Shown here: piece by piece, positions 20,136 to 53,435 of the stretch | Numbering within the stretch: position 1 is the stretch's first letter | Layout: each line of letters begins with the position of its first letter | Source of the DNA: Escherichia phage VEcB | Sequence record: NC_052663.1 | Reading direction: 5' to 3' (one strand) | DNA: 64,000 nucleotides | Program-made: the position numbers and the translations under genes | The notes under the pieces: model-generated | What the model was told of the DNA's origin: nothing | The model's database searches: none | What the model saw: only the letters and a program-made list of their open reading frames with translations

Positions 20136-20144
20136 AATAACTCC

Positions 20145-21456: not shown

Positions 21457-21966
21457 TTAGCGATAGAATTGATGTTCTTTGTAGCGGTACACTAGAACCA
21501 TATCTTTTTCCCAGTGTGCTCTTATTGTAGATTTTTTAAAGTATAATGCTCCTTTTGTAATATCTAATGCAATTCGTAATTCTGGAAAATGCGTATCGAG
21601 ATAAAGCAGACGTTCTGCTATAGCCTTAGCTTCCTTCCACTTATCACGTTCCATAACGTTGAATGTCTTTGTGTAAGAGAATTGTCCTTTTTGAAACAAA
21701 ACTTCTTTTATAGTATCAGGGAAATATGAATCTCTAGCCCTATTTAATACTACATTACCAACAGCAGACATACCGCGCTTTCCTTGATTACGACTTTCTG
21801 CATAGATTGCACAAGCTAATAGATTTTCTTTACTATCACGCTTTGTACACTTGTGAACTACTTTAGCAGTTTTTACGTTTGCAGCTTCGGCTTGCGCCAC
21901 GACAGGTGTAAATGTAAAAGCAGTTAAGGATAGTAACGCAATTGCGACAAAGGTTTTTATTGACAA
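21457..21966 (-). CDS. Secreted cell-wall hydrolase, SleB/CwlJ-like (candidate endolysin or lysis accessory)
   Basis: N-terminal signal peptide (AIALLSLTAFTFTPVVAQAEA); motif AIYAESRNQGKRGMSAVGNVVLNRARDSYFPDTIKEVLFQKGQFS resembles the Hydrolase_2 family. Confidence 0.5.
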   Translation of the reverse strand: MSIKTFVAIALLSLTAFTFTPVVAQAEAANVKTAKVVHKCTKRDSKENLLACAIYAESRNQGKRGMSAVGNVVLNRARDSYFPDTIKEVLFQKGQFSYTKTFNVMERDKWKEAKAIAERLLYLDTHFPELRIALDITKGALYFKKSTIRAHWEKDMVLVYRYKEHQFYR

Positions 21967-22058
21967 ACTTGCCTCCTATTTTGTTAAACGAACTTTTATT
22001 GTAACACAGAAGAGGCTGTTTTGCAAGTTGAGGGGGATTATCCCCCTCTTACACCCTG

Positions 22059-22661
22059 TTAGATGTTGTAGACCTTCGTATGAGTTACTACACCATCTTC
22101 TACAAAATCAATACGTTCTTGATCCGTAATTAGTGCAGACAATACTTTAAATTTAATTGTTACACGTTCAAAAGCTGGTTGACCATCTTTAAGATAATTA
22201 TGTTCAGTTGTTACTGTCTTGTTTACAAAATCAACTTTTGCTTTACCGTTTTCGCGCAAGTGGAATGTTTTTCCTGCTTTATACACAATTTCAACATTAC
22301 CTTCGAGAGTAATTCCTTCAAAAAGTTCACCCTCTTCTTCATTTTCTTCATTTTTGAACAGACGACGAAACTCTTCCATATCAAGATAAACAACATCTTC
22401 AGAATAACTATCAGTAAGGTATGTCTTACCATCCATTAACCCGAAATATTGCCAGATTGCCGAATAAACATCACTAGTTGATCCAAGGGTATCTCTGAGT
22501 TTAGTTCCACGGATTACTTCATAAACTTCAAAATTGAAACCAGACTGCAAAGCATTAAACAGTACATCACTAACTTCTAAAGCATAATCTTCATTGTTGT
22601 CAATATCCACAAGAAAATTACCGCTACGAATAAGTTTTTGACCTTCTAAAGTAATACCCAT
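22059..22661 (-). CDS. Hypothetical protein
   Basis: ORF track; RBS present; hairpin downstream. Confidence 0.4.
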   Translation of the reverse strand: MGITLEGQKLIRSGNFLVDIDNNEDYALEVSDVLFNALQSGFNFEVYEVIRGTKLRDTLGSTSDVYSAIWQYFGLMDGKTYLTDSYSEDVVYLDMEEFRRLFKNEENEEEGELFEGITLEGNVEIVYKAGKTFHLRENGKAKVDFVNKTVTTEHNYLKDGQPAFERVTIKFKVLSALITDQERIDFVEDGVVTHTKVYNI

Positions 22662-22679
22662 TGTTTTCTCCTCTTCTAT

Positions 22680-22706
22680 TTAAAATATGCGCCCCGAAGG
22701 GCGCTA
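22680..22706 (-). terminator. Terminator downstream of the TerD gene
   Basis: GCGCCC-GAAG-GGCGC hairpin followed on the minus strand by ATATTTTAAAT. Confidence 0.5.
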
Positions 22707-22713
22707 TGATTTA

Positions 22714-23310
22714 TTACTCGAACCAATCGTCGCCAGCGCCAAACGCTTTAACTACATCATAAATGTCAAGTCCAGCTTTACCTACACCATATGCTTTCAG
22801 TTTCCATTCGCTATCTTCCCGTACCAGGGAGGCAACGTGGCAAATGGTATTACCTGCAAGTTCTGGAGCCAAGAAGTCAAAATCCAGCAGTTCAACGTTA
22901 CGTTCATCATCGAAGATTTTAAGGAAACCTTCGGTAGCGTGACCAAGGCGTTTCTTACCCGTTTCGTCATCAATAGTGATTACGAATGCAATTTCCTGTG
23001 CTTCAGCAGAGATATTACCCAGTGTAACATCAATCTGCTCCATCTGTCCTACACCATCACGAACATCTTCACCTGCAAAAGTAGAACGTTCAGGATCAAA
23101 TTTCTGTGCGTAGCATACCAGGTGGCGAGGAGACAACAGTTCCGGCAGACCAGATGCATTGTGTCGGCAAATCAGAGCACTAACATCCAGATCCAGTTTT
23201 TCGTTAGATTTCCAAGAGAATTCCAGACGAATGCGTTTCAGTGCTGGTGCAATCTTTTTCAGAGAAACTTTTTCGCTAGAACCTTTTTTCAGGGAAATTT
23301 TCTGAGTCAT
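22714..23310 (-). CDS. TerD-family protein
   Basis: Colinear similarity to E. coli TerD: KISLKKGSSEKVSLKK (cf. VSLSKGGNVSLSK), DLDVSALIC (cf. DLDASAFLL), EIAFVITIDD (cf. KIIFVVTIHD), SEWKLKAYGVGKAGL (cf. GEWKFRAVGQGYAGG). Confidence 0.8.
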   Translation of the reverse strand: MTQKISLKKGSSEKVSLKKIAPALKRIRLEFSWKSNEKLDLDVSALICRHNASGLPELLSPRHLVCYAQKFDPERSTFAGEDVRDGVGQMEQIDVTLGNISAEAQEIAFVITIDDETGKKRLGHATEGFLKIFDDERNVELLDFDFLAPELAGNTICHVASLVREDSEWKLKAYGVGKAGLDIYDVVKAFGAGDDWFE

Positions 23311-23382
23311 AATTTATTATCTCCTTTGTTGTTAATTTACGTTATCTATTTTACTAATCTTTTCTACAAAGTCAAGCGTTTT

Positions 23383-24177
23383 TTACGCTTTTGCTCCGAA
23401 TTTTTTAACCCACTCGCCAAACTCTTCGGATAGCAGTTTATCGTAAAGTTCTTCGTCAGACAAGGACAAATCTGCAATACCGATAAAGTCAACGTTATCG
23501 TATTCTTTTGCCAAGTCTTTCAGGAATTTAAAGTTTGCATTACCTACACCAACCATAAACCAGTAAACAGGAGTGTTGCGGTGTTTGTTCAGCAAACTAC
23601 GTACTGCTGAAGTATCCATGTTCTCCCCGTCAGTTTGGAAGAAAATCATTGCAGGAGTACGATCAACTTGTGCATCAGTATCTACAACCTGTTCTACAAC
23701 AGTACGTGTAACTTCTACAAGTTCTTTTTTACCAGTCAGTTTAGCAAGGAAACCCTTAGCCGGAACTTCTTCATACTCAACGACTTCGCGTGTAATATTT
23801 TTCATAGGTACACTACCGAAGTATGTATCATAGATCTCTTGCATTACTGGAGCATAAGCTGTACCACCATTGATGCAAATGTTAGACATGCAAGAGCCGA
23901 CATAATCATCATATACATCAGCCGTTGCAGGAGGCAGTTCAAAAGAAGAACTATTGAAAGCCCACATGTCAATCTGTGCATTATCATCAAACTTCATACC
24001 AAACGGCAGCAGTTTACCTACAAAATCACTAACAGTGCCATCACGATATAGCTCACACATACTACCCGAAATATCTAAGGCGCTACCGACACGAAGAACA
24101 ACATCGTTAATCTTTTTCTTACGCAGAGATACAGTAAGAGTTTCTTGACGTTTTTTAAGACTGATTTTATTGGACAT
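23383..24177 (-). CDS. von Willebrand factor A domain protein (TerY/TerF-like) with short TerD-like N-terminal motif
   Basis: MIDAS motif DISGSM; N-terminus KISLKK...VSLRKK; adjacent to TerD. Confidence 0.6.
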   Translation of the reverse strand: MSNKISLKKRQETLTVSLRKKKINDVVLRVGSALDISGSMCELYRDGTVSDFVGKLLPFGMKFDDNAQIDMWAFNSSSFELPPATADVYDDYVGSCMSNICINGGTAYAPVMQEIYDTYFGSVPMKNITREVVEYEEVPAKGFLAKLTGKKELVEVTRTVVEQVVDTDAQVDRTPAMIFFQTDGENMDTSAVRSLLNKHRNTPVYWFMVGVGNANFKFLKDLAKEYDNVDFIGIADLSLSDEELYDKLLSEEFGEWVKKFGAKA

Positions 24178-24178
24178 A

Positions 24179-24448
24179 TTATTTCTCCTTTCTGACTGTA
24201 ATGTTAGTAACTTCTAAATCCACTTCTACCACTTCTGTATCATATAAAATACAGTTAAGTTGACCTCTTTGTGAACCGTTCAGACACATTGCTTGGTTTG
24301 TATTAACCTTAATAAACACTAAGTTTCTGAACGTATCTAAACCAGCATCTTGATAGGCAACATAATATACAAATGTATCACCTGCGTCAAGTTCTCCAAA
24401 ACATTTAGGTTCATCTGATTCGTCGTCTTTGATATTAAATTTAAGCAC
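24179..24448 (-). CDS. Hypothetical small protein
   Basis: ORF track. Confidence 0.3.
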   Translation of the reverse strand: MLKFNIKDDESDEPKCFGELDAGDTFVYYVAYQDAGLDTFRNLVFIKVNTNQAMCLNGSQRGQLNCILYDTEVVEVDLEVTNITVRKEK

Positions 24449-25004
24449 TATCTTCTCCTTTACCTACTTTCAAGCCTAAATAGAAAGCCTCTCTAGTGAT
24501 TTTTTGCAACTCGTTTAAAGAGATAGTTACAACTAAATCATCTTCAATTTCTAGCTTTGAGTCTTCTTCTGTCTCAATGCAAGTATTATGCACTTTGTGG
24601 TAAGGATTGTCAACACGTTTAAATTTATTATTTTCAGTGCTGAAGAAGCAATCTGGATCTTCCTCCCCATCACCCCAACCCTGGTTAGGATCTTCTTCAG
24701 ATCTTTCTGTTGGGATCTCGCCTGTAAAGTGCTCTTCTAATACCAGAGCAATCCCATCTCCAAGATCGGAAGAGAACATCAAATTACAAACTTCTTCCCA
24801 AGGCATAGACCACTTAAATCTTTTACGATTGCCATGTTTATCTTCTTCGTTAGAGAAAACACTACCATAACTATCATAATTCCCATACATCTCTTCGACA
24901 ACCTTACCACCTTTCAAAAGAAATAGGTAGCAAGGAGAGCCATCGAAAGAGGTAGAAAGAGCAGCATTACCAGACTCTTTGCACAAGAAACTAAAACACC
25001 CCAT
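24441..25004 (-). CDS. Hypothetical acidic protein
   Basis: ORF track. Confidence 0.35.
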   Translation of the reverse strand: MGCFSFLCKESGNAALSTSFDGSPCYLFLLKGGKVVEEMYGNYDSYGSVFSNEEDKHGNRKRFKWSMPWEEVCNLMFSSDLGDGIALVLEEHFTGEIPTERSEEDPNQGWGDGEEDPDCFFSTENNKFKRVDNPYHKVHNTCIETEEDSKLEIEDDLVVTISLNELQKITREAFYLGLKVGKGEDSA

Positions 25005-25204
25005 TATACACCAGCCTTAAGATCAATTAAAGCCAAAGTTGTTTCAGAGTGTGTTTGCTCGTCTACAGGTGCAGTCATATGATAATACAAAAAATCTTCA
25101 GCATCATACCAATCTGATTCTTGACCTTGTTTCCAACCATCAATGAAAGCATCTTCCATAATGGTTTGCAATTCTTCACGAGTTAAGTGAATATCTTTAC
25201 TCAT
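25004..25204 (-). CDS. Hypothetical small protein
   Basis: ORF track. Confidence 0.3.
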   Translation of the reverse strand: MSKDIHLTREELQTIMEDAFIDGWKQGQESDWYDAEDFLYYHMTAPVDEQTHSETTLALIDLKAGV

Positions 25205-25437
25205 TACACATTCTCCTCTTTTACCAATTCCATCGTTGAATTGTCAAAACCATCTTTAGAAGAATAGGTATAGACAGAACGTAGTTCTCGCAGGACAGTG
25301 AATACATTAGGATCATCTAACCAAGCATCCTGGAGGAGAACATAACGATCTTCATTGTCATACTGAACAGCAATCATAGAACCAGACAGTTTGTAAATTT
25401 TAATATTCATAATATATTTCTCCTTAAAGTAGACCAC
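25204..25437 (-). CDS. Hypothetical small protein
   Basis: ORF track. Confidence 0.3.
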   Translation of the reverse strand: MVYFKEKYIMNIKIYKLSGSMIAVQYDNEDRYVLLQDAWLDDPNVFTVLRELRSVYTYSSKDGFDNSTMELVKEENV

Positions 25438-26527
25438 GTTTAACAGTTTGAATCATACCATCTTCAAGAGATTGCACTTCTTGAATGTAATCAATACGAG
25501 CAGCACGGGCTTCAGTGTTGATTCGGTTAGTTTCTTCCAACATTTTAACTAAGTTTTCTTGATCGCGACGTAATGTTTCAATATCCAATACTTGACGATT
25601 AGCAAGTTTTGTAGCTTCAATTTGGTTTTGTGCAGCCAGATCACTACCCATTGCAATAGCAGCATTAAATTCATTCAGTACATTGTTCTGTGTATCGGCT
25701 GCTTTCTTCTGGCGTAAACTTTCAATATACATAGAAAAGTTTGCAGAGTAAGCAGGAATAACATTATTCACAATATTACGGGCTGATCGCATCAAACTTG
25801 CAGATACTTTCTGCATACTTTGTACACGTGGCCCCATCTGAACACACAGTAAACGCAAGGCTTTCAGGTCTGCAATACGAATTTCAAGCAGATCCATAGT
25901 ATCACGAGTACGTTGACGCTCTTCTACTTCATTTTCAGGTAGTGTATTAAGGCGAACTTCTTCTTTTTCATAAGTAGCTGTTAGAAGCTCTATATCCCTG
26001 TTTAAGCTAAGAGCATATTTTGCAATAGCCTCCTCTAAACGTTGCAGATATCGTAAAGAATCTTCTTCTTTTTTCAAATCTGTTTGGAGTGTCTTTACCA
26101 AACCTTCAATACGGTTATTGATGGTGTCAAATTCTCCAAACAAATCTTCTTTCATACCTAAAACTTTCTTAACTAGTTTACCTAAACCTTTAGATTGTTT
26201 AATAGAGTTAGGATCAAGTTGCTTTGCTTGCTTAATAAGTGCAGTTAAACGTTCACTCATTTCATCTCCCTGAGATGAACGCTGGTGTTTAAGCACTTCA
26301 GCATTAAGGTTACGAAGAGTAAGTCCTGCATCAGCACCAACCTGTTCAATCTCTTCACGAGACATTGGAGGCAGCATTTGTACAGGGCGTGCAACAGCAG
26401 GGGCATATACAGGGCTTGCATCCATAGCACTTGGAGCAAACAAAGACTTACTTTTTTCTGTTGTTGCCGTGAATACACTCATTTCAGACGGTTTGCTTTT
26501 TACGGCACTGATAAAAGGACTGGACAT
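25424..26527 (-). CDS. TelA-like (toxic anion resistance family) protein, tentative
   Basis: 367 aa, predominantly alpha-helical/coiled-coil; size and position within a TerC/TerD/vWA cluster fit TelA; not verified by profile. Confidence 0.4.
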   Translation of the reverse strand: MSSPFISAVKSKPSEMSVFTATTEKSKSLFAPSAMDASPVYAPAVARPVQMLPPMSREEIEQVGADAGLTLRNLNAEVLKHQRSSQGDEMSERLTALIKQAKQLDPNSIKQSKGLGKLVKKVLGMKEDLFGEFDTINNRIEGLVKTLQTDLKKEEDSLRYLQRLEEAIAKYALSLNRDIELLTATYEKEEVRLNTLPENEVEERQRTRDTMDLLEIRIADLKALRLLCVQMGPRVQSMQKVSASLMRSARNIVNNVIPAYSANFSMYIESLRQKKAADTQNNVLNEFNAAIAMGSDLAAQNQIEATKLANRQVLDIETLRRDQENLVKMLEETNRINTEARAARIDYIQEVQSLEDGMIQTVKRGLL

Positions 26528-26595
26528 TCAATTTCCTCCATATTCTTTAGTAAATGGTGATACCTCTGTACCACCATAATAACACAAGTTAAGTA

Positions 26596-27447
26596 TTAAA
26601 CAAACATATCTAAATAATTTGTAGTAATAAATGCTCCATCTGCTTCCAGATTAACATAACCCGTGGTATTAGCAGTTAAGAAATCTAGATCGAAGGACTC
26701 TTTAACACCCCGTACCTCAACACGAGAGATATCGAATACAGGTAGTGTAACAGCCTCTTCGTGCAATACCGTACCTTTGTAGGTTGCCTTAATGATAAAC
26801 TTGATATTACCTGTTCCAGCATCATATAAAACACTTTCAAACCCTTTGAGAGTATATTTATCACCAGAAGTGAAGTGCAAAGTTGCTTTGTTTACAGTAC
26901 GTTTCTTACGAGGAGTTCCTTTCACACGTTTATGATCACTACGTTTTTTGTATTTAGGAATGAATACAAACGATACACTCTCAAGAAAGGTATCAACATC
27001 AAGGATTTTAATATCCTCTGTTGCAGCAAATTTTGAAGTCGTTGCATCAAAATGCTTTTCCCTGCGATCATACATAAAGATATCAAACCGATCTTCTAAA
27101 TCAAACAAATTATGTATTTTAATTTCAGAATGCTTGCGCATTGCAGCAACCTTGAACTCTTCAAAACGTGGGTGTTCTACAAGTTCTTCAAGTTTTACAC
27201 CAAAGACAGTATATGGCTTCGAAGTCTTTTCTGGTGTTGGCATTACAGAAGCATAGTCCCCGATTGCGCTCTTAAAGCAAAATTGTTCTTGACCTGTATT
27301 TTTACCAACGAATTTACAGTATTCATCATCGTGCATACTTTCCTTGGTAGTACCAACAAACTCAAAACCATCTTTATTCTTCTCAAGGATTTCTTGATTA
27401 AAGATCCAACCTTCCAGGCGATATACTTTACCAACTTCTAGTTTCAT
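26596..27447 (-). CDS. Hypothetical protein within the Ter-like cluster
   Basis: ORF track; GAAGGAG RBS. Confidence 0.4.
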   Translation of the reverse strand: MKLEVGKVYRLEGWIFNQEILEKNKDGFEFVGTTKESMHDDEYCKFVGKNTGQEQFCFKSAIGDYASVMPTPEKTSKPYTVFGVKLEELVEHPRFEEFKVAAMRKHSEIKIHNLFDLEDRFDIFMYDRREKHFDATTSKFAATEDIKILDVDTFLESVSFVFIPKYKKRSDHKRVKGTPRKKRTVNKATLHFTSGDKYTLKGFESVLYDAGTGNIKFIIKATYKGTVLHEEAVTLPVFDISRVEVRGVKESFDLDFLTANTTGYVNLEADGAFITTNYLDMFV

Positions 27448-27482
27448 CTGTTTCTCCTTCTTATTTAATCTGTATTAAATTA

Positions 27483-28073
27483 TTAACGACGACGTGAGCT
27501 ACTAAAACTACGTTTCGACGAAGAATAACTTTTCGAAGACTTACTATAAGAACTAATAGGGCTTGAGTAAGACTTACGAGCAGAGTAATCACTATTCACT
27601 TTTGTTGTTGACGGGCGTGAATACGTTTGTACACTTTGCTGCTTAATTGTGTTTTGTTTAGTGGTTGTATATGTATTTCCTTGTTTATCATAAAAACTAT
27701 GCTTTTGTGTTGTATATGCTTTACTGTTAGTTGTAGGAGCAGCGTTGTTATTAATAATTGTTGTGCTGCTACCACCATCTCTATAACCGCCACCGCCACT
27801 ATTACCACTCAACATATGACCAAGAAGCATACCTGTAGCAAACTCACCTACACCAGAAGAACCACTGCCGCCTCCTTGCACAACAACTGTTGAAGGTTGT
27901 GCAGGTGCTGCTTGAACAACTTGAGGTGCAGGCTGATTTACATATTGTTCATCTACCATCTGATTTGGTGTTTGTTGGTAACGTTGATTTTGTACATTTT
28001 CAGAATCATCACAACCTACCAGCAATGCACTACCTAATACAACTGCAACAATAAAAGATTTAATGTTTTTCAT
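27483..28073 (-). CDS. Predicted lipoprotein with low-complexity Q/S/Y/G-rich body and basic Ser-rich tail
   Basis: Signal peptide plus lipobox (LLVGC); GGGSGSSG and SYSKSSKSYSSSKRSFSSSRRR tracts; start taken at internal Met MKNIKSF. Confidence 0.45.
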   Translation of the reverse strand: MKNIKSFIVAVVLGSALLVGCDDSENVQNQRYQQTPNQMVDEQYVNQPAPQVVQAAPAQPSTVVVQGGGSGSSGVGEFATGMLLGHMLSGNSGGGGYRDGGSSTTIINNNAAPTTNSKAYTTQKHSFYDKQGNTYTTTKQNTIKQQSVQTYSRPSTTKVNSDYSARKSYSSPISSYSKSSKSYSSSKRSFSSSRRR

Positions 28074-28269
28074 TTGTAACCCTCTCATTTAAAGTCTCAA
28101 CACAATTTTTAAAATCCCTAGAGAAACAATACATCTGTTCTCCGTTCCTGTTGATAGTAATTGTATGGTTATCAATATATGTTGTCAAGATAAAAATCAA
28201 ACAAAACAACCCTAGAGCAAAACAAATATTTTCAAACAGAATCCAAAGAACACGTAAAACCACCATCAG

Positions 28270-28300
28270 ATCACCTCAACAAAGCCCCCGAAGGGGCTTA
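28270..28300 (-). terminator. Terminator downstream of the TerC gene
   Basis: AGCCCC-CGAA-GGGGCT hairpin followed on the minus strand by TTTGTT. Confidence 0.5.
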
Positions 28301-28317
28301 ATGAATTAAGCAACAGT

Positions 28318-29283
28318 CTAGTCTTCTTTTTCAGGGAAGATTAAACTTGCAATAACACCCAGCCCAAGAGTACCTAACACAATATACATACTGATCGTCG
28401 GATCAATGTGTGCTGGCAGGAAACTCACTTTTGCGTGCAGAGTTTCTGCAAACGGGTGATACATCAGTTTTACACCCACAAATACCAGGACTACGATAAC
28501 TGCTTTCTCCAGATGAACCAAATACTTCAGTGCAACACTAAGAACAAAGAACAGAGCACGTAAACCTAAGATTGCACAGAGCATCGAAGAGAACACCAGC
28601 AGAGGTTCTTGTGTCACCGCAATTACCGCTGGAACAGAGTCTACTGCAAAGATTACGTCAACCATTTCCATTACAAACACACAAACCAGAGCCGGAGTTG
28701 CTACACGAACACCATTTTTGATTGTGAAGAACTTCTCACCATCCATCTGATCAGATACAGGGAACAGCTTACGAACAATGCGAGTAGCCCAGTGTTTAGA
28801 GTAATCAACTTCTGCATCATTATCCCCAGCGAATACCATTTTAGCCGCACAGAAAAGGATGACAGCACCGAAGAAGATATTAACATACCAGCCCAAACTC
28901 AACAAGTAAGTGCCTACTGCTACAAACACACCTCGGAAGACAATCGCACCTGCAATACCCCAAAGTAGAATTTTGTGCTGCAAGTGTGTGCTTTTAATAC
29001 CAAAACTTGCGAAGACTGCCACAAATACTACTAAGTTATCTACAGAAAGAGATTTCTCCAACACATACCCACTCAAGAACAAGCTCGCAAAATCAGCACC
29101 GTGTTGGAAGTATACAAAACCATAGTAGGCTAATGATACCCCAATCCAGAAAATTGACCAGCCAATTGCAGATTTAAATGAAATTTCTTTGTTTTCTCTG
29201 TGTCCAAAGAAGTCAATACAAATCGACAAGACTAAAATACCCACTAAAACAACCACATCAATAATTGGGAAACCCAGTTGCAT
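28318..29283 (-). CDS. TerC-family integral membrane protein
   Basis: Multiple TM helices; signature YVLEKSLSVDNLVVFV and second repeat DVIFAVDSVPAVIAV typical of TerC/Alx. Confidence 0.75.
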   Translation of the reverse strand: MQLGFPIIDVVVLVGILVLSICIDFFGHRENKEISFKSAIGWSIFWIGVSLAYYGFVYFQHGADFASLFLSGYVLEKSLSVDNLVVFVAVFASFGIKSTHLQHKILLWGIAGAIVFRGVFVAVGTYLLSLGWYVNIFFGAVILFCAAKMVFAGDNDAEVDYSKHWATRIVRKLFPVSDQMDGEKFFTIKNGVRVATPALVCVFVMEMVDVIFAVDSVPAVIAVTQEPLLVFSSMLCAILGLRALFFVLSVALKYLVHLEKAVIVVLVFVGVKLMYHPFAETLHAKVSFLPAHIDPTISMYIVLGTLGLGVIASLIFPEKED

Positions 29284-29360
29284 TCTTTTCTCCTCTTTAA
29301 TGCGGAGGACAATCCTCCGCTCTATGTCTTATACTATAAACTGTTTTTAAAGAAAGTCAA

Positions 29361-29609
29361 CTAGTTCAGTTCTGTAATTTTAAGTTTATCTTCTTTGTTA
29401 ATGATAGGGAAAGCTACAGCATCACCTACGTCATCAATAAAGCAAATAGCAAGACCACCTTCCACTTTGCTAATCTGACCATTAAAGGCGTGATACGGGG
29501 CAGGAACTTGATCTCCATCTTCAAGGAGAATAGCCTCGTAAACCTTGCCGATAGTACAATCACGAGTGTTTTTAAATTTTTCAAGCACTTCAACATTTAC
29601 TTTACGCAT
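29361..29609 (-). CDS. Hypothetical small protein
   Basis: ORF track. Confidence 0.3.
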   Translation of the reverse strand: MRKVNVEVLEKFKNTRDCTIGKVYEAILLEDGDQVPAPYHAFNGQISKVEGGLAICFIDDVGDAVAFPIINKEDKLKITELN

Positions 29610-29623
29610 ATAAAGATCCTCTC

Positions 29624-29830
29624 TTATTTGTTAGATTGAAAGATACCACGAAGTACCGCAAGAATGAACGTCACACAGACTACACTCCAAAACGTTACAG
29701 GAACATGATGCCAGTCTAAACCGATAATGTCAATCATATAGTTGTATGCTAAAAGCAGTAGCCAACTAGGGATTAACACAATCAAGAACACAACAATAAA
29801 ACAACCTAATACTGCTAAAACACCTGCCAT
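29624..29830 (-). CDS. Small membrane protein (two hydrophobic helices)
   Basis: ORF track; hydrophobic composition. Confidence 0.35.
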   Translation of the reverse strand: MAGVLAVLGCFIVVFLIVLIPSWLLLLAYNYMIDIIGLDWHHVPVTFWSVVCVTFILAVLRGIFQSNK

Positions 29831-29839
29831 ACTTTCTCC

Positions 29840-30556
29840 TTATTTCAGTTTGTAAACAATTACATTTAAACCTTTGTTCACTAGAGTTTCTTCGATCATA
29901 AGTTTTACAATATTCCAAGAACCTCCAGCCAAACCACAACCAAGCATTGGTAAACCTACAATTTTACCGCCTGAAGATACAACATCGTCTCCCATACTAT
30001 CTAACGCATTGTAGATAGCTTCATAATTCAGGTCACGCTTACCTTCCTCACGACGACTATAACCATATTGTCCATATAAATTATAAATTGTCAAATTGTT
30101 TTCTGCATACTTAGTAAACGTACCTAATTTTTTATAATCACCACGTTTAGTGGCACAATCTGCTTTAAACGCACCAGGCCACTTGCTTTTAATTTTTGGT
30201 GCAATACCACTACCCATAGTGCAAAAACAGTTACAGCAGTGTGCTATAGCGTCTATATCGCCTCTCTCGGCTGCTGCTAAAAGATCACCGTACACCTCAA
30301 TGATACCTGCTGGATAACTTGTTACAATTTCATCTTCCCAGTACATTTTCTCTACACCACCGATCAGTGCAAAGTTTTGTGTAATACGATCATCAATGTA
30401 ATTAAGACCTGAGACATACACAGCGTATTCATCACGTGCTGTGATACCTTGTACACGAATTCTTAAGACACCATCTTTATCTGTTGCTACACGCCCAAAA
30501 TCTTTTTCTGTAATATTGGTGATAGGATCTCCGAAAGTCATTACTTTATTAGACAT
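29840..30556 (-). CDS. Macro-domain-like protein (putative ADP-ribose binding/processing)
   Basis: DAIAHCCNCFCTMGSGIA aligns in pattern with the macro motif (AIVNAAN..LLGGGGVDGAI); second glycine-rich motif GLPMLGCGLAGGSW; ATG overlaps the PRTase stop (AGGGGA RBS). Confidence 0.4.
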   Translation of the reverse strand: MSNKVMTFGDPITNITEKDFGRVATDKDGVLRIRVQGITARDEYAVYVSGLNYIDDRITQNFALIGGVEKMYWEDEIVTSYPAGIIEVYGDLLAAAERGDIDAIAHCCNCFCTMGSGIAPKIKSKWPGAFKADCATKRGDYKKLGTFTKYAENNLTIYNLYGQYGYSRREEGKRDLNYEAIYNALDSMGDDVVSSGGKIVGLPMLGCGLAGGSWNIVKLMIEETLVNKGLNVIVYKLK

Positions 30557-31406
30557 AATAATCCCCTTTAACATTAGGTTTGTTGATAATGTTGCTTTCA
30601 AAAAATTGACGTAGGAAATCAAAGTTCTCTTTGTATTTTTCAATGTTATTGTAACCTTCTGCAAGGCAACCAAAGAACAGTTGTTCTACATAATACAAAG
30701 GAAGTTGTGAAAGTGCAATTTTAAAGTCAACTTCGCTTTGACTCATTAGATACTTAATAGGACGAACCAAACATTTAGCATCAGCTTCTTGCTTAATCAT
30801 TTTAATAAAAGCTGCCAGATTATTGATATAGTTGAAGTTAAGTGCAGCTTCGGTGTTGGCTTCTGTACCTTCATACTTTGCAAAGTACAGGAAAAACGTA
30901 TTGTTTTCAACACCTTCTTTGTCTAAAATTTCAATAAGTTTTTCTTCGTGTGTACCTGTAATATTAACATCATCAATGAAAATCAGATTTTTATCGCCCC
31001 AAAAATCACGATTGATAGAGAAAGTATCACCATCGATCAAAGCCTTACGATCTTCTTTGCTAAGAAATCCATAATCATTGATATAGCTTACTTTACGATG
31101 AACGATATCCCACTCTACTGCTTTACCTCCTTTGATAGAGATTAGGTAGTTGAGGTGATCTACAAAATGTTCAGATAACACTGTAGCTGCATTTTTAACA
31201 TAGTTATACGGAGATGGAATAACAACAGAACTTTCATTTACCAGTCGTTCTTCATATTTAGAAAAGAAACTTTCAGCCAGAATGCGTCCCATTCTTTTTG
31301 CTGCCTGGTTACTACCAAACTTTAGTTTGGAATAATCTGCAATGTTAAATTTTGCTTCCTTCAGGTTAGTAAAAGTATTAGCAAAATGTTGAATTTGATT
31401 ACGCAT
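30549..31406 (-). CDS. Phosphoribosyltransferase-like (PRTase) protein
   Basis: PRPP-binding-type motif NLIFIDDVNITGTHEEKL; 8-nt overlaps with both neighbouring genes. Confidence 0.55.
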   Translation of the reverse strand: MRNQIQHFANTFTNLKEAKFNIADYSKLKFGSNQAAKRMGRILAESFFSKYEERLVNESSVVIPSPYNYVKNAATVLSEHFVDHLNYLISIKGGKAVEWDIVHRKVSYINDYGFLSKEDRKALIDGDTFSINRDFWGDKNLIFIDDVNITGTHEEKLIEILDKEGVENNTFFLYFAKYEGTEANTEAALNFNYINNLAAFIKMIKQEADAKCLVRPIKYLMSQSEVDFKIALSQLPLYYVEQLFFGCLAEGYNNIEKYKENFDFLRQFFESNIINKPNVKGDYYV

Positions 31407-32055
31407 TAATAAGTTCCTCTTTTTTAAGTTTAGCCAACAAGTCTTCTGGATTAATAATATGACAGAACTTCATCCCTATGTCAACAGCTTTTCCATCATA
31501 AATCAAACTATCTCCAACGTGTAAAATCTCCTCTGGTGCGAGATCAAACGTCACCATTTCATCAAAAGAGAGTTTAAAAAACCTAGGATCTGGTTTACAC
31601 AAGCAAAACTCGTCAGAAAAATGCATAAAGTCGAATGGTAATTTTGTTAAGCCAGAATATACAGCTAAGAAACTACCTGGTACAAAATTAGTATTGCTCT
31701 TAATACTCAAAGAGTAGGTTGAACTTAACTCTTCCAACTTCTTGCAAAGTTCAGGATTCAATGTTGGAGGATGTTTTATAAACATTGCTAAACAGTCTCT
31801 TTTTAACCCATCCACTTTATCAAGATCAATGTTCAAACGAGTAGAAAGTGTTACCCAAGCATCCTTAGACGTTCCACAAATGCCTTTTTCTGCTTTTAAA
31901 TCCAAGAGAGTTTTTACCTCTTTATATACGGTAGCTGCTTCTACCTCAGAACAAGAGGCATACTCGGCAATAACCTTGTTGCGCTCTTCTGCATACAAAG
32001 GGTTAGCAGTAATAAGAGTATTCCATACATCAAAAGAAATATGCTTAACAGTCAT
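31399..32055 (-). CDS. HAD-superfamily hydrolase (phosphatase/dehalogenase-like)
   Basis: Motif I ISFDVWNTL, KPDPR, motif IV HVGDSLIYDG; start set at Met with GGAGG RBS. Confidence 0.6.
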   Translation of the reverse strand: MTVKHISFDVWNTLITANPLYAEERNKVIAEYASCSEVEAATVYKEVKTLLDLKAEKGICGTSKDAWVTLSTRLNIDLDKVDGLKRDCLAMFIKHPPTLNPELCKKLEELSSTYSLSIKSNTNFVPGSFLAVYSGLTKLPFDFMHFSDEFCLCKPDPRFFKLSFDEMVTFDLAPEEILHVGDSLIYDGKAVDIGMKFCHIINPEDLLAKLKKEELINA

Positions 32056-32225
32056 TTTTAATCCTCCGTCCAAAAGAATATCATCTGCTTAATTTTATTG
32101 ATCTCTTGATGTAGTAACTTTCCAGCATGTGATTGATCTTTAATATTGACAGCAAGAATTTCAAGCTCCGTTAGTTTTTCCTGGATAGCTTTATATTCAT
32201 CATCTGTAAGCATTTTCTTCCCCCT

Positions 32226-32429
32226 TTAGAATGGTAATCTTTGTATGTCACTTATCCCCACACCAAGAAGTCTAGCAATATCCTTATCTAAAAGCAACTC
32301 TTTTTGTTCTAAAATGTTAATCAGATCTCCTAATACTTCTTTAATGTCACGATCATTTTTAGCAACGTGACCACCTGCCGTATCAACTTTATCTTTAAAA
32401 ACAAAGTAATGATCCATAATACCCTCCAT
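32226..32429 (-). CDS. Hypothetical small protein
   Basis: ORF track. Confidence 0.3.
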   Translation of the reverse strand: MEGIMDHYFVFKDKVDTAGGHVAKNDRDIKEVLGDLINILEQKELLLDKDIARLLGVGISDIQRLPF

Positions 32430-32435
32430 ATAAAT

Positions 32436-32458
32436 AAAGGAGGCTTTCGCCTCCTTTT
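32436..32458. terminator. Hairpin terminator between the ATPase paralog A gene and 32226..32429
   Basis: GGAGGC-TTTC-GCCTCC hairpin with T-rich flanks. Confidence 0.45.
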
Positions 32459-32463
32459 ATCAC

Positions 32464-33624
32464 TTAGTAAGAACGACCACCAAACACATACTCTGTGTAG
32501 TTTTTACGTTCTTTGTTTTTAATAACAACTTCAATGTTGTTACCTTTATCATCGGTGAACACAAAGTGATAACCGTCACCACCCATTGTACGGATGTGTT
32601 TTTCATCATACGTCAGCAAGATACGGTCTACACCCCAGTAGTAGTCACCTTCTTCATCTTTGTCTTCTACTGTAACGACCCCTTCCATTTCAGGAAGATG
32701 TTCTTCTCCTAGCTTATGGTCTACAGCTACAACATAACGATTACCGCTAAACAAACCCTGTGCTGTCATACCGTCAATATCGGTATCTGCCGAAACATCT
32801 CCTGTACGATCTACACCGTTGACTTTCAGAAGTTTAACTTCTTTTGCAGCATAGCGGTGTTCAGTAATACTGATACCCATTAATGCAAGTGCATCAGAGA
32901 ATTTGTCATTAGGGTAACGGTTAAGTTCTTCTACTAATGACTGAACAATATCAAAGTTCAAGTCCACGGACAGATTATAAAGCGTTTCAAAATCTGGTAA
33001 AAAGGCTTTGTTCTCCAGATTTTTAGCCAGATAATCATCCATAGTAGCTTTAGGTAGTTTCTTATAGCTAAAACTGTAGAAAATACGGCTAGGACGATTA
33101 CGCAAAAATTCTGATACATAACCATCATTTTTAGTCAATACAAACAGCTTGTCATAACCACCAACACCATCCAGCAGGGTAAGCAAACCATCTTGTGCAT
33201 CTTTTTCAGCATACAGTTTATCAAATTCATCGATCATAATCATCACAGGTTGTGTGATTTTAGACATAAAGTTGATAAAGCCTTCACCATTAAAAGCACT
33301 ACCGATAGAAATAGTAGGAATACCCATTTCACGAAGAGCAGAAGACAGCATTTTAGCTTGCAAAGTTTTACCGCTACCTTTCGTACCCTCAAGGAGAACA
33401 CCTGTGTTTTTACCTTTGCGGCTAAGGAACGTCTTGATAATACGTTCTGATTTATCATCAGTATCACCGTATGTTACTGAAGGGACTTCCATATCGTTTT
33501 TAGGATACAGGAAGAACTCGCCACTTTGAGTAACACCTACACCAAAAGTTCCTGCTGGAATTTCTTCAATATCTGTACCAGACTTCTGACGCAGGAAGAT
33601 TTGATTGCCGAATACTGTAAACAT
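32464..33624 (-). CDS. P-loop NTPase (AAA-like), paralog A
   Basis: Walker A GTKGSGKT, Walker B MIMIDEFDK; colinear paralog of 49159..50286 on the + strand. Confidence 0.55.
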   Translation of the reverse strand: MFTVFGNQIFLRQKSGTDIEEIPAGTFGVGVTQSGEFFLYPKNDMEVPSVTYGDTDDKSERIIKTFLSRKGKNTGVLLEGTKGSGKTLQAKMLSSALREMGIPTISIGSAFNGEGFINFMSKITQPVMIMIDEFDKLYAEKDAQDGLLTLLDGVGGYDKLFVLTKNDGYVSEFLRNRPSRIFYSFSYKKLPKATMDDYLAKNLENKAFLPDFETLYNLSVDLNFDIVQSLVEELNRYPNDKFSDALALMGISITEHRYAAKEVKLLKVNGVDRTGDVSADTDIDGMTAQGLFSGNRYVVAVDHKLGEEHLPEMEGVVTVEDKDEEGDYYWGVDRILLTYDEKHIRTMGGDGYHFVFTDDKGNNIEVVIKNKERKNYTEYVFGGRSY

Positions 33625-33644: not shown

Positions 33645-34115
33645 TTAGTCAGATTCCCAAATGTTGTCTTTCTTAACCCACATTCGTTGATTATCTGAAC
33701 CTCTATAACGTTTCGTTGTTGGTTGAGTCATATCATACTTACCATCTATTACTATGTCAACCAGTTTTTTAATTTTCTCTGGAATTTCTTCAAAAAGATA
33801 TCCTGTATATAAGACAATATCTTTTTTGTTTCCAAAACAATCTCTTACCTTCTCAAGAACATACTCTACAGTGTCAATGTTCTCTTTGTCAAGAGGTTCA
33901 CCACCTAAAACTGTTAATCCTTTAATGAAAGGTCGAGATAAATCTTCCAAGATAAGATCTAATGTTTCAGTAGTGAACTCTTGTCCGTAGTTATACGACC
34001 AGGCTTTCTGGTTGAAGCAGCCACGGCAACCGTGGCTACAACCGCTCACCCACAAAGAGCATCTTACACCGTCACCGTTGAGCATGTCAACAGGTTCATA
34101 TCCGGCGTAATTCAA
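33645..34115 (-). CDS. nrdG: Anaerobic ribonucleotide reductase activating protein (radical SAM)
   Basis: Cys cluster CSHGCRGC near N-terminus; 156 aa; directly downstream of nrdD; TTG start with RBS. Confidence 0.65.
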   Translation of the reverse strand: MNYAGYEPVDMLNGDGVRCSLWVSGCSHGCRGCFNQKAWSYNYGQEFTTETLDLILEDLSRPFIKGLTVLGGEPLDKENIDTVEYVLEKVRDCFGNKKDIVLYTGYLFEEIPEKIKKLVDIVIDGKYDMTQPTTKRYRGSDNQRMWVKKDNIWESD

Positions 34116-35050: not shown

Positions 35051-35083
35051 ACACATTATGTTCAAAGTGGCTCGCAAGGCCAC

Positions 35084-36681: not shown

Positions 36682-36699
36682 TAATCCTCCGTGGAAAAT

Positions 36700-53413: not shown

Positions 53414-53435
53414 AAATCAAAGAAAGGGTAATGCA

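What the first reader, a model, noticed from the sequence alone, without database searches (positions are those of the whole stretch)
22714..32055. Phage-borne Ter-like cluster (TerD, vWA, TelA-like, TerC) linked to a HAD-PRTase-macro operon
A ~9-kb co-directional block on the minus strand encodes a clear TerD homolog, a vWA protein with a TerD-like N-terminus, a TelA-like helical protein, a TerC membrane protein, a lipoprotein and several unknowns. Immediately upstream is a translationally coupled trio (8-nt overlaps): HAD hydrolase, phosphoribosyltransferase, macro-like protein. Ter-domain systems are bacterial stress and phage-defence-associated modules, and comparative genomics has linked them to PRTase/HAD enzymes predicted to make a nucleoside-like metabolite. 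Finding the whole ensemble inside a virulent phage replication region is unusual; it suggests the phage makes or intercepts such a metabolite, or manipulates host membrane/ion homeostasis during infection.
Basis: partly seen in the sequence, partly recalled or inferred. Interest (0 to 1): 0.88.

Follow-up and report, generated by a model that had tools for sequence, protein, structure and literature searches.

The report
Phage Ter module in phi92-like coliphage
The genes are real: this is the conserved Ter-type membrane and metal gene block of phi92-like E. coli phages, next to a paired HAD/phosphoribosyltransferase unit. The block is already annotated, the idea is already published for other phages, and the "macro" gene is most likely a separate anti-DarT counter-defence enzyme.

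Summary
The window is a phi92-like myophage (Justusliebigvirus), 98% identical to more than 50 sequenced phages. On the minus strand, two hairpin terminators (32457-32436 and 22704-22689) bound about 19 genes. These include TerD, a TerF-C-type vWA protein, TelA, an Alx/TerC membrane protein, an inner-membrane lipoprotein and small membrane proteins. They also include HAD, PRTase_3 and macro genes joined by 8-nt overlaps.

- HAD-PRTase_3 is an obligate gene pair, adjacent in 24 of 24 loci. It recurs beside Ter genes in divergent phages and in one bacterial Ter locus, so the Ter link holds.
- The macro domain belongs to the T4 Tk.4/AdfM and SCO6735 class, which reverses DarT2 ADP-ribosylation of DNA. 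It occurs in about 3,000 phage genomes, against about 155 with the PRTase. Its coupling to the PRTase is specific to the phi92 lineage.
- The ensemble is not unusual. About 130 Stephanstirmvirinae genomes carry it. Ter systems with PRTase and HAD were reported in phages in 2021, with superinfection exclusion proposed as their role.

TerC has a conserved early-type host promoter, which suggests early expression. The function remains untested.

Verdict: a new member of a known kind, of moderate interest, and experimentally tractable in E. coli K-12 phages.

The parts
32436..32457 (-). Hairpin terminator (AAAGGAGGC-GAAA-GCCTCCTTT followed by a T-run). It closes the upstream AAA-ATPase gene and marks the upstream boundary of the block.
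   Evidence: Paula annotates a terminator at the same place.
32226..32417 (-). 63-aa ORF, equivalent to phi92 gp189. phi92 annotates it as a putative helix-turn-helix regulator. It is the first gene of the unit.
   Evidence: No Pfam match.
32058..32213 (-). 51-aa ORF of unknown function (phi92 gp188).
31399..32055 (-). HAD-superfamily hydrolase. Motif I is FD9-V-W11-N-T, so the Asp+2 general acid is missing. Motif II is SNT, motif III is K154-P and motif IV is GD182SLIYD187. It always lies immediately upstream of the PRTase_3 gene.
30549..31406 (-). Type I phosphoribosyltransferase of the PRTase_3 family. The PRPP loop IFIDD145D146VNITGT is intact. An 8-nt overlap joins it to the HAD gene.
   Evidence: AF2 model pLDDT 89. 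Foldseek matches to HGXPRT, ComF and PyrR.
29840..30556 (-). Two-domain protein. Residues 1-87 are an N-domain shared with a MazG-like ORF in relatives. Residues 88-238 are a macrodomain of the Tk.4/AdfM, SCO6735, TARG1 and DarG class. H106, N109, Q163 and the GCGLAGG loop are retained. An 8-nt overlap joins it to the PRTase gene.
29624..29830 (-). 68-aa protein with two hydrophobic segments. It is conserved in relatives.
29361..29609 (-). 82-aa ORF of unknown function.
29302..29360 (-). Sigma-70-type promoter (TTGACT, 16 nt, TATAGT) followed by a 5' hairpin (GCGGAGGA-TTG-TCCTCCGC), directly upstream of TerC. It has the same architecture as 10 promoter-hairpin modules in the small-ORF region of the window.
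   Evidence: (conserved, with compensatory stem changes, in 4 relatives). phAPEC8 annotates a host-dependent promoter here.
28318..29283 (-). TerC/Alx-subfamily integral membrane protein with at least 8 hydrophobic segments.
28060..28266 (-). 68-aa protein with a single hydrophobic segment. It has a weak DUF6693 match.
27483..28073 (-). Predicted lipoprotein. The lipobox is LLVGC21, followed by Asp-Asp, which signals inner-membrane retention in E. coli. The body is rich in Gly, Ser, Thr and Gln.
   Evidence: (SignalP note in phi92)
26596..27447 (-). 283-aa protein of unknown function. It evolves fast: 34-39% identity in relatives, dN/dS about 0.5.
25424..26527 (-). TelA-family protein. It is all-helical with very long helices and a disordered N-terminus.
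   Evidence: (low-confidence model)
24179..25410 (-). Four small or medium ORFs of unknown function (68, 66, 187 and 89 aa; phi92 gp177-gp174). The 187-aa ORF is missing from some relatives.
23383..24177 (-). vWA protein equivalent to the C-terminal half of TerF. The MIDAS residues D35-x-S37-x-S39, T106 and D183 are intact. It has no TerD domain.
23348..23375 (-). Sigma-70-like promoter match (TTGACT, 16 nt, TAAAAT) in the gap between the vWA and TerD genes.
   Evidence: consensus match only
22714..23310 (-). Single-domain TerD protein. The DLDVSA motif is kept, but the Ca2+-binding motif is degenerate (GED-VRDGVGQME in place of GDNRTGEGDGDDE).
22689..22704 (-). GC-rich hairpin (GCGCCC-TTCG-GGGCGC), the terminator at the downstream boundary of the block.
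22059..22661 (-). 200-aa protein (phi92 gp171) just beyond the terminator. It is a possible associate, because a homologue lies between TerC and vWA in the divergent phage contig L015.
   Evidence: found only after one HMM iteration, so tentative

Best explanation
The block is the accessory 'Ter module' shared by the phage subfamily Stephanstirmvirinae (phi92-like and phAPEC8-like phages). It has three parts.

1. A membrane-proximal Ter core. It consists of an Alx/TerC-type divalent-metal export protein, a TelA coiled-coil protein, a TerF-C-type vWA protein with an intact metal-binding MIDAS site, and one TerD domain. Phage-specific small membrane proteins and an inner-membrane lipoprotein accompany them. 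The core is transcribed from a conserved promoter of host sigma-70 type, of the same class as the promoters in front of the small, presumably early genes. Early expression is therefore inferred.

2. An obligately paired HAD-PRTase_3 unit. Inferred: it uses PRPP and an unknown base or nucleophile to make a ribonucleotide-like small molecule, which the atypical HAD enzyme processes further. The product would be the ligand or regulator of the Ter core.

3. A passenger gene, functionally separate from the other two parts. It encodes a Tk.4/AdfM-type macrodomain, which most likely removes DarT2-type ADP-ribose from thymidines in phage DNA.

Most likely role of parts 1 and 2 (inferred by analogy, not shown): they condition the inner membrane and periplasmic metal balance of the infected cell. 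This would keep out superinfecting phages and pore-forming toxins and keep the envelope intact until lysis. Plasmid ter operons confer the corresponding phenotypes of phage inhibition and colicin resistance.
For: Identity of the parts: all family matches are above or at curated cut-offs. Catalytic and binding motifs are present. The PRTase model is confident and has a type I PRTase fold.

One transcription unit: terminators lie at both ends and every gene has a Shine-Dalgarno sequence.

Expression timing: the promoter and hairpin upstream of TerC are conserved in 4 relatives, with compensatory stem changes. They match the 10 promoter-hairpin modules in the small-ORF region. phAPEC8 annotates a host-dependent promoter at the same place.

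Purifying selection: dN/dS is about 0.05-0.14 for TerD, vWA, TelA, TerC and the PRTase (dS is saturated).

Link between Ter and HAD-PRTase:
- The HAD gene is adjacent to the PRTase_3 gene in 24 of 24 loci.
- Ter genes lie within 10 kb in 6 of 11 non-Stephanstirmvirinae phage lineages, in different gene orders. Each Ter family occurs in 0.5% or fewer of 50,697 phage records.
- One bacterial locus carries the pair directly after TerD: DUF475/TerC, TerD, vWA/TerY-C, PP2C, TerD, HAD, PRTase_3.
- The E. coli plasmid ter locus also carries a PRTase and a HAD, though of other families.

Macro as a separate unit:
- It is 30% identical to Tk.4, E 8e-18.
- T4 tk.4 is adfM, required against DarTG2 (bioRxiv 10.1101/2025.11.20.689424).
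- The best PDB homologue, SCO6735, cleaves thymidine-linked ADP-ribose on DNA through Gln85, Asn27 and Gly128 (PMC9411070). These residues are conserved here.

Functional analogy: the R478 ter cluster encodes phage inhibition and colicin resistance (Whelan 1995, as cited in PMC8386662). Superinfection exclusion was proposed for phage Ter systems in PMC7824862.
Against: - No experiment exists on any phage Ter gene. The searches found no paper on this block in Stephanstirmvirinae or on the PRTase_3 family.
- HAD-PRTase_3 occurs without Ter genes within 10 kb in 5 phage lineages, on a Rhizobium plasmid and in an Akkermansiaceae genome. The link is therefore not obligatory.
- TelA and vWA occur in many phages that lack the PRTase.
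- The Ca2+ motif of TerD is degenerate.
- The HAD lacks the Asp+2 general acid of phosphatases. The textbook scheme 'PRTase makes an NMP, HAD dephosphorylates it' may be wrong.
- TerB and the TerA/Z/E paralogues, which belong to the plasmid system that gives the phage-inhibition phenotype, are absent.
- The TelA model is of low confidence, pLDDT 57.6.
- Early expression is inferred from promoter architecture only.
Confidence: 0.5

Rival explanations
1. The block is an accessory-gene island of functionally independent units that merely sit together. The Ter core would be one unit and the macro gene an anti-DarT2 unit. HAD-PRTase_3 would be a free-standing nucleotide-salvage or counter-defence unit, for example one that consumes PRPP or destroys or mimics a nucleotide immune signal, with no ligand relationship to TerD, TelA or TerC.
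For: - HAD-PRTase_3 is found without nearby Ter genes in L004/5, L006, L014, L016 and L020/21, on Rhizobium plasmid pRL10 and in the Akkermansiaceae locus L029.
- The genes around the pair vary and are conflict-type enzymes: macro, a MazG-like pyrophosphatase in L008, and a weak dual-specificity phosphatase match in L004.
- A separate promoter sits between the trio and TerC.
Against: - Ter genes recur beside the pair in 6 of 11 divergent phage lineages and in a bacterial Ter locus. Each Ter family is present in 0.5% or fewer of phage genomes.
- About 130 Stephanstirmvirinae records carry each of the five genes, judging by the identity bands.
- Caulobacter and Brevundimonas giant phages carry both sets, though tens of kb apart.
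Confidence: 0.3
2. The block is an auxiliary metabolic or homeostasis module serving the phage's own replication. TerC/Alx would adjust cytoplasmic Mn2+ or other divalent metals, and TelA, TerD and vWA would buffer envelope or oxidative stress. This would keep metal-dependent phage enzymes and the cell working through a long infection. Competitors would not be the target.
For: - TerC falls in the 'TerC/Alx metal homeostasis' subfamily, above the curated cut-off.
- The block sits next to the ribonucleotide reductase genes nrdD and nrdG.
- PHROGs files TelA and TerC under 'moron, auxiliary metabolic gene and host takeover'.
- Bacterial ter and terC contribute to stress tolerance and to zinc and tellurite resistance (paper titles PMC9933665 and PMC12054061).
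Against: - This does not explain the PRTase-HAD link.
- There is no yybP-ykoY Mn riboswitch or any other Rfam element upstream.
- Most large virulent phages do without these genes.
Confidence: 0.15
3. The segment is host DNA or an assembly artefact, or a recent capture of a host ter operon.
For: None beyond the bacterial ancestry of the families.
Against: - The same 11 kb is present at 98% identity, in the same context, in more than 50 independently sequenced phages.
- G+C is uniform.
- The only E. coli DNA similarity is 195 nt at 68% identity.
- Phage TelA has no bacterial relative above 27% identity.
- The phage HAD and PRTase are unrelated in sequence to those of the E. coli ter locus.
Confidence: 0.01

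Closest known systems
Phage-borne Ter systems described by Iyer, Anantharaman, Krishnan, Burroughs and Aravind 2021 (PMC7824862): Acinetobacter phage vB_AbaM_ME3 with PRTase and HAD, and Caulobacter giant phages. Also the Klebsiella phage phiKp34 cluster (PMC8386662).
   Same: The component list is the same: TerC, TerD, TerF-type vWA and TelA, with a PRTase and a HAD in the fuller versions. All are virulent tailed phages. The proposed role, competition with superinfecting phages, applies equally.
   Different: This genome is about 147 kb, so it is not a jumbo phage. The cluster is compact, bounded by terminators and fixed across a whole subfamily. That paper's main text does not mention phi92 (0 occurrences). 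An AdfM-type macro gene is spliced in between the HAD-PRTase pair and the Ter core.
Bacterial Ter stress-response loci (terZABCDEF plus terWXY and biosynthetic genes of IncHI2 plasmids and O157 islands)
   Same: TerC, TerD and the vWA domain of TerF are homologous. The phage vWA protein aligns to residues 177-404 of the 413-aa TerF, E 6e-27. The bacterial locus also carries a PRTase and a HAD hydrolase.
   Different: The phage has no TerB, no TerA/Z/E paralogues and no TerW. It also lacks TerX/Y, TerY-C, PP2C, ATP-grasp, HpcH and StiP. Its PRTase and HAD belong to other sequence families. It adds TelA, which that locus lacks.
T4 Tk.4 (AdfM, anti-DarT factor macrodomain), and S. coelicolor SCO6735 and the DarG macrodomains
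   Same: The macrodomain is homologous: E 8e-18 to RB14 Tk.4, E 3e-15 to SCO6735, and 1.5e-13 to the DarG model. It has the SCO6735-type active site, with Gln in place of the catalytic Lys and with the Asn, His and Gly loop conserved.
   Different: It carries an extra 87-residue N-terminal domain. That domain is found elsewhere fused to a MazG-like pyrophosphatase. SCO6735 Lys34 and Lys89 are Ser here. Activity against DarT2 has not been tested for this protein.
Bacillus subtilis yceCDEFGH-type hub (three TerD genes, TerC and TelA); recalled from the literature, not checked here
   Same: It has the same minimal combination of TerD, TerC and TelA, without TerB.
   Different: It is a bacterial envelope-stress regulon member and has no vWA protein or PRTase-HAD pair. 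The comparison rests on memory and was not tested.

Membership tests
TerD domain family (PF02342) | Profile match above the curated cut-off over the whole beta-sandwich domain | tested here: met
   E 1.3e-27, 96.9 bits against 25.3, residues 5-180. Klebsiella TerD 2kxt matches at E 7.9e-14.
TerD domain family (PF02342) | Acidic Ca2+-binding motif GDN(R/L)TG(E/A)GDGDDE. Its role in Ca2+ binding is recalled from the literature. | tested here: not met
   The aligned stretch is GED-VRDGVGQME; three Asp positions are V, Q and M. Other phage TerDs (L003, L019) keep the canonical motif.
TerC/Alx family (PF03741, TIGR03718) | Profile match above the curated cut-off, and a polytopic membrane protein | tested here: met
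   TIGR03718 at 322.8 bits against 246.4; PF03741 at 133 bits. At least 8 hydrophobic segments.
TerC/Alx family (PF03741, TIGR03718) | Upstream yybP-ykoY (Mn2+) riboswitch, as in the 'R_switched' bacterial members | tested here: not met
   No Rfam family reaches gathering score anywhere in the window. The leader is about 43 nt with a simple hairpin.
TelA (PF05816) | Profile match above the curated cut-off, and an all-helical protein | tested here: met
   E 2.6e-34, 119 bits against 30. The model is all-helical but of low confidence, pLDDT 57.6.
TerF (TerD domain plus vWA) | C-terminal vWA-TerF-like domain with MIDAS residues | tested here: met
   PF10138, E 1.2e-38. D35-x-S37-x-S39, T106 and D183 are present. 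It aligns to TerF residues 177-404.
TerF (TerD domain plus vWA) | N-terminal TerD domain | tested here: not met
   No TerD profile match in the vWA protein. Only a 20-residue shared motif, E 0.086.
Complete plasmid-type ter system (terZABCDE) | Presence of TerB and of several TerD paralogues (TerZ, TerA, TerE) | tested here: not met
   Pfam scans of all ORFs in the block found one TerD and no TerB. Compare the E. coli plasmid locus.
TerY-P defence system (PADLOC) | TerY vWA plus PP2C phosphatase plus Ser/Thr kinase | tested here: not met
   No PADLOC match for the vWA, TerD, TelA or TerC proteins. There is no PP2C or kinase in the block.
Type I phosphoribosyltransferase, PRTase_3 (PF15610) | Profile match, PRPP-binding loop (hydrophobic residues, then DD, then x-x-TG-x-T) and PRTase fold | tested here: met
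   E 9.6e-41, 140 bits against 28.7. D145, D146, T150, G151 and T152 are invariant in 14 homologues. The AF2 model has pLDDT 89, and Foldseek matches HGXPRT, ComF and PyrR at E down to 3.5e-6, with TM only 0.3-0.4.
Type I phosphoribosyltransferase, PRTase_3 (PF15610) | Known substrate or product | not testable with these tools
   No experimental literature on the family was found. The fold search gives no close functional relative.
HAD-superfamily phosphatase | Motif I nucleophile Asp, motif II Ser/Thr, motif III Lys, motif IV acidic pair | tested here: met
   D9, S120/T122, K154 and D182...D187 are present. The Pfam score of 26.1 is just under the 26.4 cut-off. PDB 2om6 matches at E 4.8e-8.
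HAD-superfamily phosphatase | Asp+2 general acid/base (DxDxT) needed for phosphomonoester hydrolysis; established HAD enzymology | tested here: not met
   Motif I is D-x-[W/Y]-x-T in all 21 PRTase-linked HAD sequences. This resembles the DxYGT of 2-haloacid dehalogenases. NCBIfam gives weak matches to both dehalogenase type II and HAD-IA phosphatase models.
AdfM / DarG-type DNA ADP-ribosylglycohydrolase macrodomain | Homology to Tk.4, SCO6735 and DarG, with active-site His, Asn, Gln (or Lys) and the Gly loop | tested here: met
   Residues H106, N109, Q163 and G206-G212, set against the SCO6735 mutagenesis.
AdfM / DarG-type DNA ADP-ribosylglycohydrolase macrodomain | Protection of the phage against DarTG2 | not testable with these tools
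   Shown only for T4 tk.4.

The most novel reading that the evidence does not exclude
The obligate HAD-PRTase_3 pair would make a still unidentified ribosylated small molecule in the infected cell. Its HAD enzyme lacks the general acid of phosphatases, so the product is probably not a plain nucleoside. This molecule would switch on a minimal phage-encoded Ter membrane complex (TerC/Alx, TelA, TerF-vWA and TerD). The whole would be a small-molecule-gated device that seals the inner membrane against superinfecting phages, pore-forming colicins or membrane-targeting abortive-infection effectors. If true, it would identify the long-predicted 'nucleoside-like metabolite' of Ter systems in a system of only six genes that infects E. 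coli K-12.
Probability: 0.2. Interest if true: 0.75.

Novelty: new member of a known kind. Interest (0 to 1): 0.4.

Why it matters
Ter operons are widespread in pathogens. They have been linked to phage inhibition, colicin resistance and stress tolerance for 30 years, yet no mechanism is known and the predicted nucleoside-like metabolite has never been identified.

The phage version described here is a stripped-down set: one TerC, one TerD, one vWA protein and one TelA, plus a two-gene HAD-PRTase unit. It is conserved under purifying selection. It is carried by phages that plate on E. coli K-12, including BASEL collection members, so deletion, transposon-sequencing and metabolomics experiments are straightforward.

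The work also corrects an attractive but probably wrong three-enzyme pathway. The macro gene is better explained as an anti-DarT2 counter-defence gene.

Tried and rejected
- Unknown ORFs. Pfam at E up to 10, NCBIfam, PADLOC and PHROGs were run on gp171, gp174-177, gp179-181 and gp183-184. They matched only lineage-specific PHROGs of unknown function.
- TelA structure. The AF2 model from a 17-sequence alignment had pLDDT 57.6 and pTM 0.38. It was too poor for a fold search, so none was run.
- PRTase substrate. The fold search gave only generic type I PRTases at TM 0.3-0.4.
- Riboswitch upstream of TerC. No Rfam family reaches gathering score anywhere in the window.
- Anantharaman et al. 2012. 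The paper is not held in the library. Its content is used only as cited by others or from memory.
- Bacterial survey. The genome-contig scan gave only 4 loci, because it depends on two exact peptide patterns. It is not a census.
- A 200-aa ORF upstream of the HAD gene in phAPEC8 and L008 carries two HxT motifs and looks 2H-phosphoesterase-like. Pfam and PHROGs give no support, so this is only a lead.
- TerY-P defence system membership was rejected.
- Recent capture from the host was rejected.
- One broad literature search returned mostly irrelevant papers.

Full report
WHAT THE WINDOW IS

Megablast of 22000-33000 finds 120 phage records. Fifty-two of them cover at least 80% of the query, and the best are 98% identical: Escherichia phages ALITA, Paula, phi92 and others. 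The taxonomy is Caudoviricetes; Stephanstirmvirinae; Justusliebigvirus.

The block corresponds to phi92 gp172-gp189. It lies among replication and nucleotide-metabolism genes. NrdD, NrdG, an AAA ATPase and a UvrD-like helicase are on one side. An endolysin, three glycosyltransferases, a primase/helicase and the DNA polymerase are on the other.

G+C is flat at 0.35-0.39. The only similarity to 5,426 E. coli genomes is a 195-nt stretch of terC at 68% identity. The segment is therefore genuine phage DNA.

CHECK OF THE OBSERVATION

- TerD: E 1.3e-27.
- vWA-TerF-like: E 1.2e-38.
- TelA: E 2.6e-34.
- TerC: E 1.1e-38.
- Macro: E 4e-7, above the cut-off.
- PRTase_3: E 9.6e-41.
- HAD: E 1.3e-5, which is 0.3 bits under the Pfam cut-off. 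PDB 2om6 supports it at E 4.8e-8.

TerC also passes the curated cut-off of TIGR03718, 'TerC/Alx family metal homeostasis membrane protein'.

Both 8-nt overlaps are present, ATGCGTAA and ATGTCTAA, and every gene has a Shine-Dalgarno sequence.

gp180 has a lipobox, LLVGC. The residues after the Cys are Asp-Asp, which in E. coli signals retention in the inner membrane (sequence; the sorting rule is established knowledge).

The 'TerD-like N-terminus' of the vWA protein is a 20-residue motif, KISLKK...VSLRK. All phage vWA-TerF-like proteins start with it. In E. coli TerF it lies at the start of the C-terminal vWA half; the phage protein aligns to TerF residues 177-404, E 6e-27. The phage protein is therefore TerF without its TerD domain.

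ANATOMY BEYOND THE FINDING

Two hairpin terminators on the coding strand bound the block. One lies at 32457-32436, after the AAA-ATPase gene. The other lies at 22704-22689, after TerD.

Inside the unit, the gap upstream of TerC holds a near-consensus sigma-70 promoter (TTGACT, 16 nt, TATAGT). A hairpin and the ribosome-binding site follow it.

This promoter and hairpin are conserved in phAPEC8 and in three metagenomic relatives. The -35 TTGAC is invariant, and the stems differ in sequence but keep their pairing. phAPEC8 annotates a host-dependent promoter at this spot.

The same architecture occurs ten times on the plus strand between 53.3 and 61.3 kb, in front of the many small ORFs there. 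On the minus strand of the block it occurs only once, upstream of TerC. I infer, without direct evidence, that TerC to TerD is transcribed early by host RNA polymerase.

IS THE TER LINK TO HAD-PRTASE REAL?

Homologues of the PRTase were collected from the protein database, viral contigs, bacterial genomes, GenBank phages and plasmids. Their flanks were then searched with phmmer and with iterated HMMs.

The HAD gene lies immediately upstream of the PRTase_3 gene in 24 of 24 loci. It is an obligate pair.

Outside Stephanstirmvirinae there are 11 phage lineages.
- Six have Ter genes within 10 kb, in different orders: L003, L015, L017, L018, L019 and L022. L015 has the full set: TerC, vWA, two TerD genes, TelA, HAD and PRTase.
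- Five do not. The Caulobacter and Brevundimonas giant phages among them carry TelA and vWA elsewhere in the genome.

In GenBank phages each Ter family is rare among 50,697 records: TerD 144, TerC 175, vWA 214, TelA 244 and PRTase_3 155. The identity bands show that about 130 Stephanstirmvirinae records carry each of the five genes.

One bacterial contig (a Haliea MAG, L031) is a classical Ter locus: DUF475/TerC, TerD, vWA, vWA+TerY-C, PP2C and TerD, followed directly by HAD-PRTase_3.

The pair also occurs alone, on Rhizobium plasmid pRL10 and next to a Na/Ca exchanger gene in an Akkermansiaceae genome.

The E. coli IncHI2-type ter locus carries its own PRTase and HAD. These are unrelated in sequence to the phage ones.

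Conclusion: the association is real and recurrent, but the modules can be separated.

THE ENZYMES

PRTase_3 keeps the PRPP loop; D145, D146, T150, G151 and T152 are invariant in 14 homologues. The model is confident (pLDDT 89). It has a type I PRTase core resembling 6-oxopurine PRTases, ComF and PyrR, but only at TM 0.3-0.4. The fold and the likely use of PRPP are supported. The second substrate is unknown.

The HAD partner has the nucleophile Asp, the motif II Ser/Thr, the motif III Lys and the motif IV GDxxxD. The residue two positions after the nucleophile is Trp or Tyr in all 21 sequences. Canonical HAD phosphatases need an Asp there as the general acid. This enzyme may therefore not be a simple nucleotide phosphatase. 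That weakens the textbook reading that the PRTase makes an NMP and the HAD removes the phosphate.

THE MACRO GENE IS A DIFFERENT STORY

Residues 88-238 match several related proteins:
- the DarG models of PADLOC and NCBIfam, below the equivalog cut-off;
- PDB entries SCO6735, BT1257 and human TARG1;
- Tk.4 of T4-like phages, at 30% identity, E 8e-18. phi92's own annotation calls the protein 'Tk.4-like'.

A 2025 preprint shows that T4 tk.4 is the single gene needed to resist DarTG2. It renames the gene adfM. SCO6735 cleaves thymidine-linked ADP-ribose on DNA and depends on Gln85, Asn27 and Gly128. The equivalent residues Q163, N109 and the GCGLAGG loop are present here.

Homologues of this macrodomain occur in 2,977 phage records, about 20 times more than the PRTase. 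Only 61 records cover the full-length protein.

In phAPEC8 the macro gene starts 13 nt after the PRTase stop codon. In L008 two ORFs separate the two genes. One is a 188-aa protein with two parts. Its N-terminal 80 residues are homologous to the N-terminus of the window's macro protein (E 1e-5). Its C-terminus is a MazG-like pyrophosphatase (phrog_1247, E 1.9e-21).

The phi92-type arrangement therefore looks like a deletion that fused that N-domain to the macrodomain. The tidy 8-nt coupling is a lineage-specific accident of that event. The macro gene is best read as a counter-defence passenger.

THE TER CORE

TerD keeps the DLDVSA motif. It has lost three Asp residues of the acidic Ca2+-binding motif, while TerDs in other phage lineages keep the motif. 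The vWA MIDAS residues are intact.

TelA has no bacterial relative above 27% identity. It is predicted to be all-helical with very long helices, but the model is poor.

There is no TerB and no TerA/Z/E. TerW/X/Y, PP2C, a kinase and ATP-grasp are also absent.

Comparisons between genera give dN/dS of about 0.05-0.14 for TerD, vWA, TelA, TerC and the PRTase. The HAD and macro genes give about 0.15-0.28, and the 283-aa unknown about 0.5. dS is saturated, so these values are rough.

HOW IT MOST LIKELY WORKS

Shown: the domain identities, the motifs, the gene coupling, the unit boundaries, the conservation and the recurrent linkage.

Inferred:
(a) Early expression from the host-type promoter.
(b) TerC moves a divalent metal across the inner membrane, as its subfamily does.
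(c) TelA, vWA and TerD assemble at the membrane.
(d) HAD-PRTase_3 makes a PRPP-derived small molecule that acts on this complex.
(e) The net effect is exclusion of competing phages or pore-forming toxins, or protection of the envelope.

Step (e) rests on the phage-inhibition and colicin-resistance phenotypes of the R478 ter cluster (cited). It also rests on the hypothesis of Iyer et al. 2021.

I put about 0.5 on this package. I put 0.3 on the units being independent neighbours, and 0.15 on a metal or stress homeostasis role serving replication.

NOVELTY

phi92 annotated these genes piecemeal as 'stress protein', 'tellurite resistance', 'membrane bound tellurium resistance protein', 'phosphatase', 'orotate PRTase?' and 'hydrolase'. 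PHROGs files TelA as 'tellurite resistance'.

[quoted passage not shown] A similar cluster was described in phiKp34.

The searches found no paper that treats the Stephanstirmvirinae block as a unit or tests it.

It is thus a new, well-delimited member of a known kind. The points added here are:
- the terminator-bounded unit;
- the early-type promoter;
- the obligate HAD-PRTase pairing;
- the atypical HAD motif;
- the reassignment of the macro gene.

Noticed in passing
window 53354-61256 (+ strand), and 29302-29360 (- strand): A promoter-hairpin module recurs: TTGACA, 16-17 nt, TAnnnT, about 10 nt, then a GC-rich hairpin (consensus GGCGGGAAATGGTTTCCCGCC). There are ten copies in front of the small ORFs and one upstream of TerC. 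It matches no Rfam family. It could be an early-promoter and 5'-stabiliser element, or a regulator-binding element.
   Followed up: partly
window 34112-36711 (- strand): The anaerobic ribonucleotide reductase gene nrdD is split into two ORFs (35815-36711 and 34112-35083) by a 185-aa endonuclease-like ORF (35206-35763). phi92 annotates a spliced variant, and Paula has an uninterrupted nrdD. No group I intron family reached the Rfam gathering score.
   Followed up: no
L011:11628-12602 compared with L024:12632-13606, and window 28318-29283: Some phAPEC8-like genomes carry a TerC allele that is about 95% identical to the phi92 type, although their neighbouring genes are only 64-79% identical. The TerC identity bands are 50, 14, 7 and 60 records, against 52 and 78 for the PRTase and TelA. 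This points to exchange of terC between the two genera.
   Followed up: partly
L024:9745-10350 (phAPEC8 gp047), L011:8748-9350 and L008:6981-7625; absent from the window: Relatives have a ~200-aa ORF directly upstream of the HAD gene. It carries two H-x-T motifs (HFHLTL and VHIKT), which suggests a 2H phosphoesterase. Pfam and PHROGs give no support.
   Followed up: partly
window 21457-21966 (- strand): The 'cell wall hydrolase/endolysin' (phi92 gp170) begins with a signal-peptide-like sequence, MSIKTFVAIALLSLTAFTFTPVVAQA. This suggests a secreted or signal-anchored endolysin.
   Followed up: no
window 19449-20708 (- strand), continuing upstream: Three consecutive glycosyltransferase genes (phi92 gp164-166) lie between the replication genes and the endolysin. 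Their target is unknown.
   Followed up: no
GenBank records MG065639, MG065645, MG065656 and MG065689: Five records labelled 'Campylobacter phage', with host C. jejuni, are 97.6% identical to this E. coli phage over the whole 11 kb. They are probably mislabelled or come from a co-isolated coliphage.
   Followed up: no
L029:7851-9155: In an Akkermansiaceae genome a Na+/Ca2+ exchanger-family membrane protein and a trypsin-like protease directly precede the HAD-PRTase_3 pair, in place of Ter genes.
   Followed up: no
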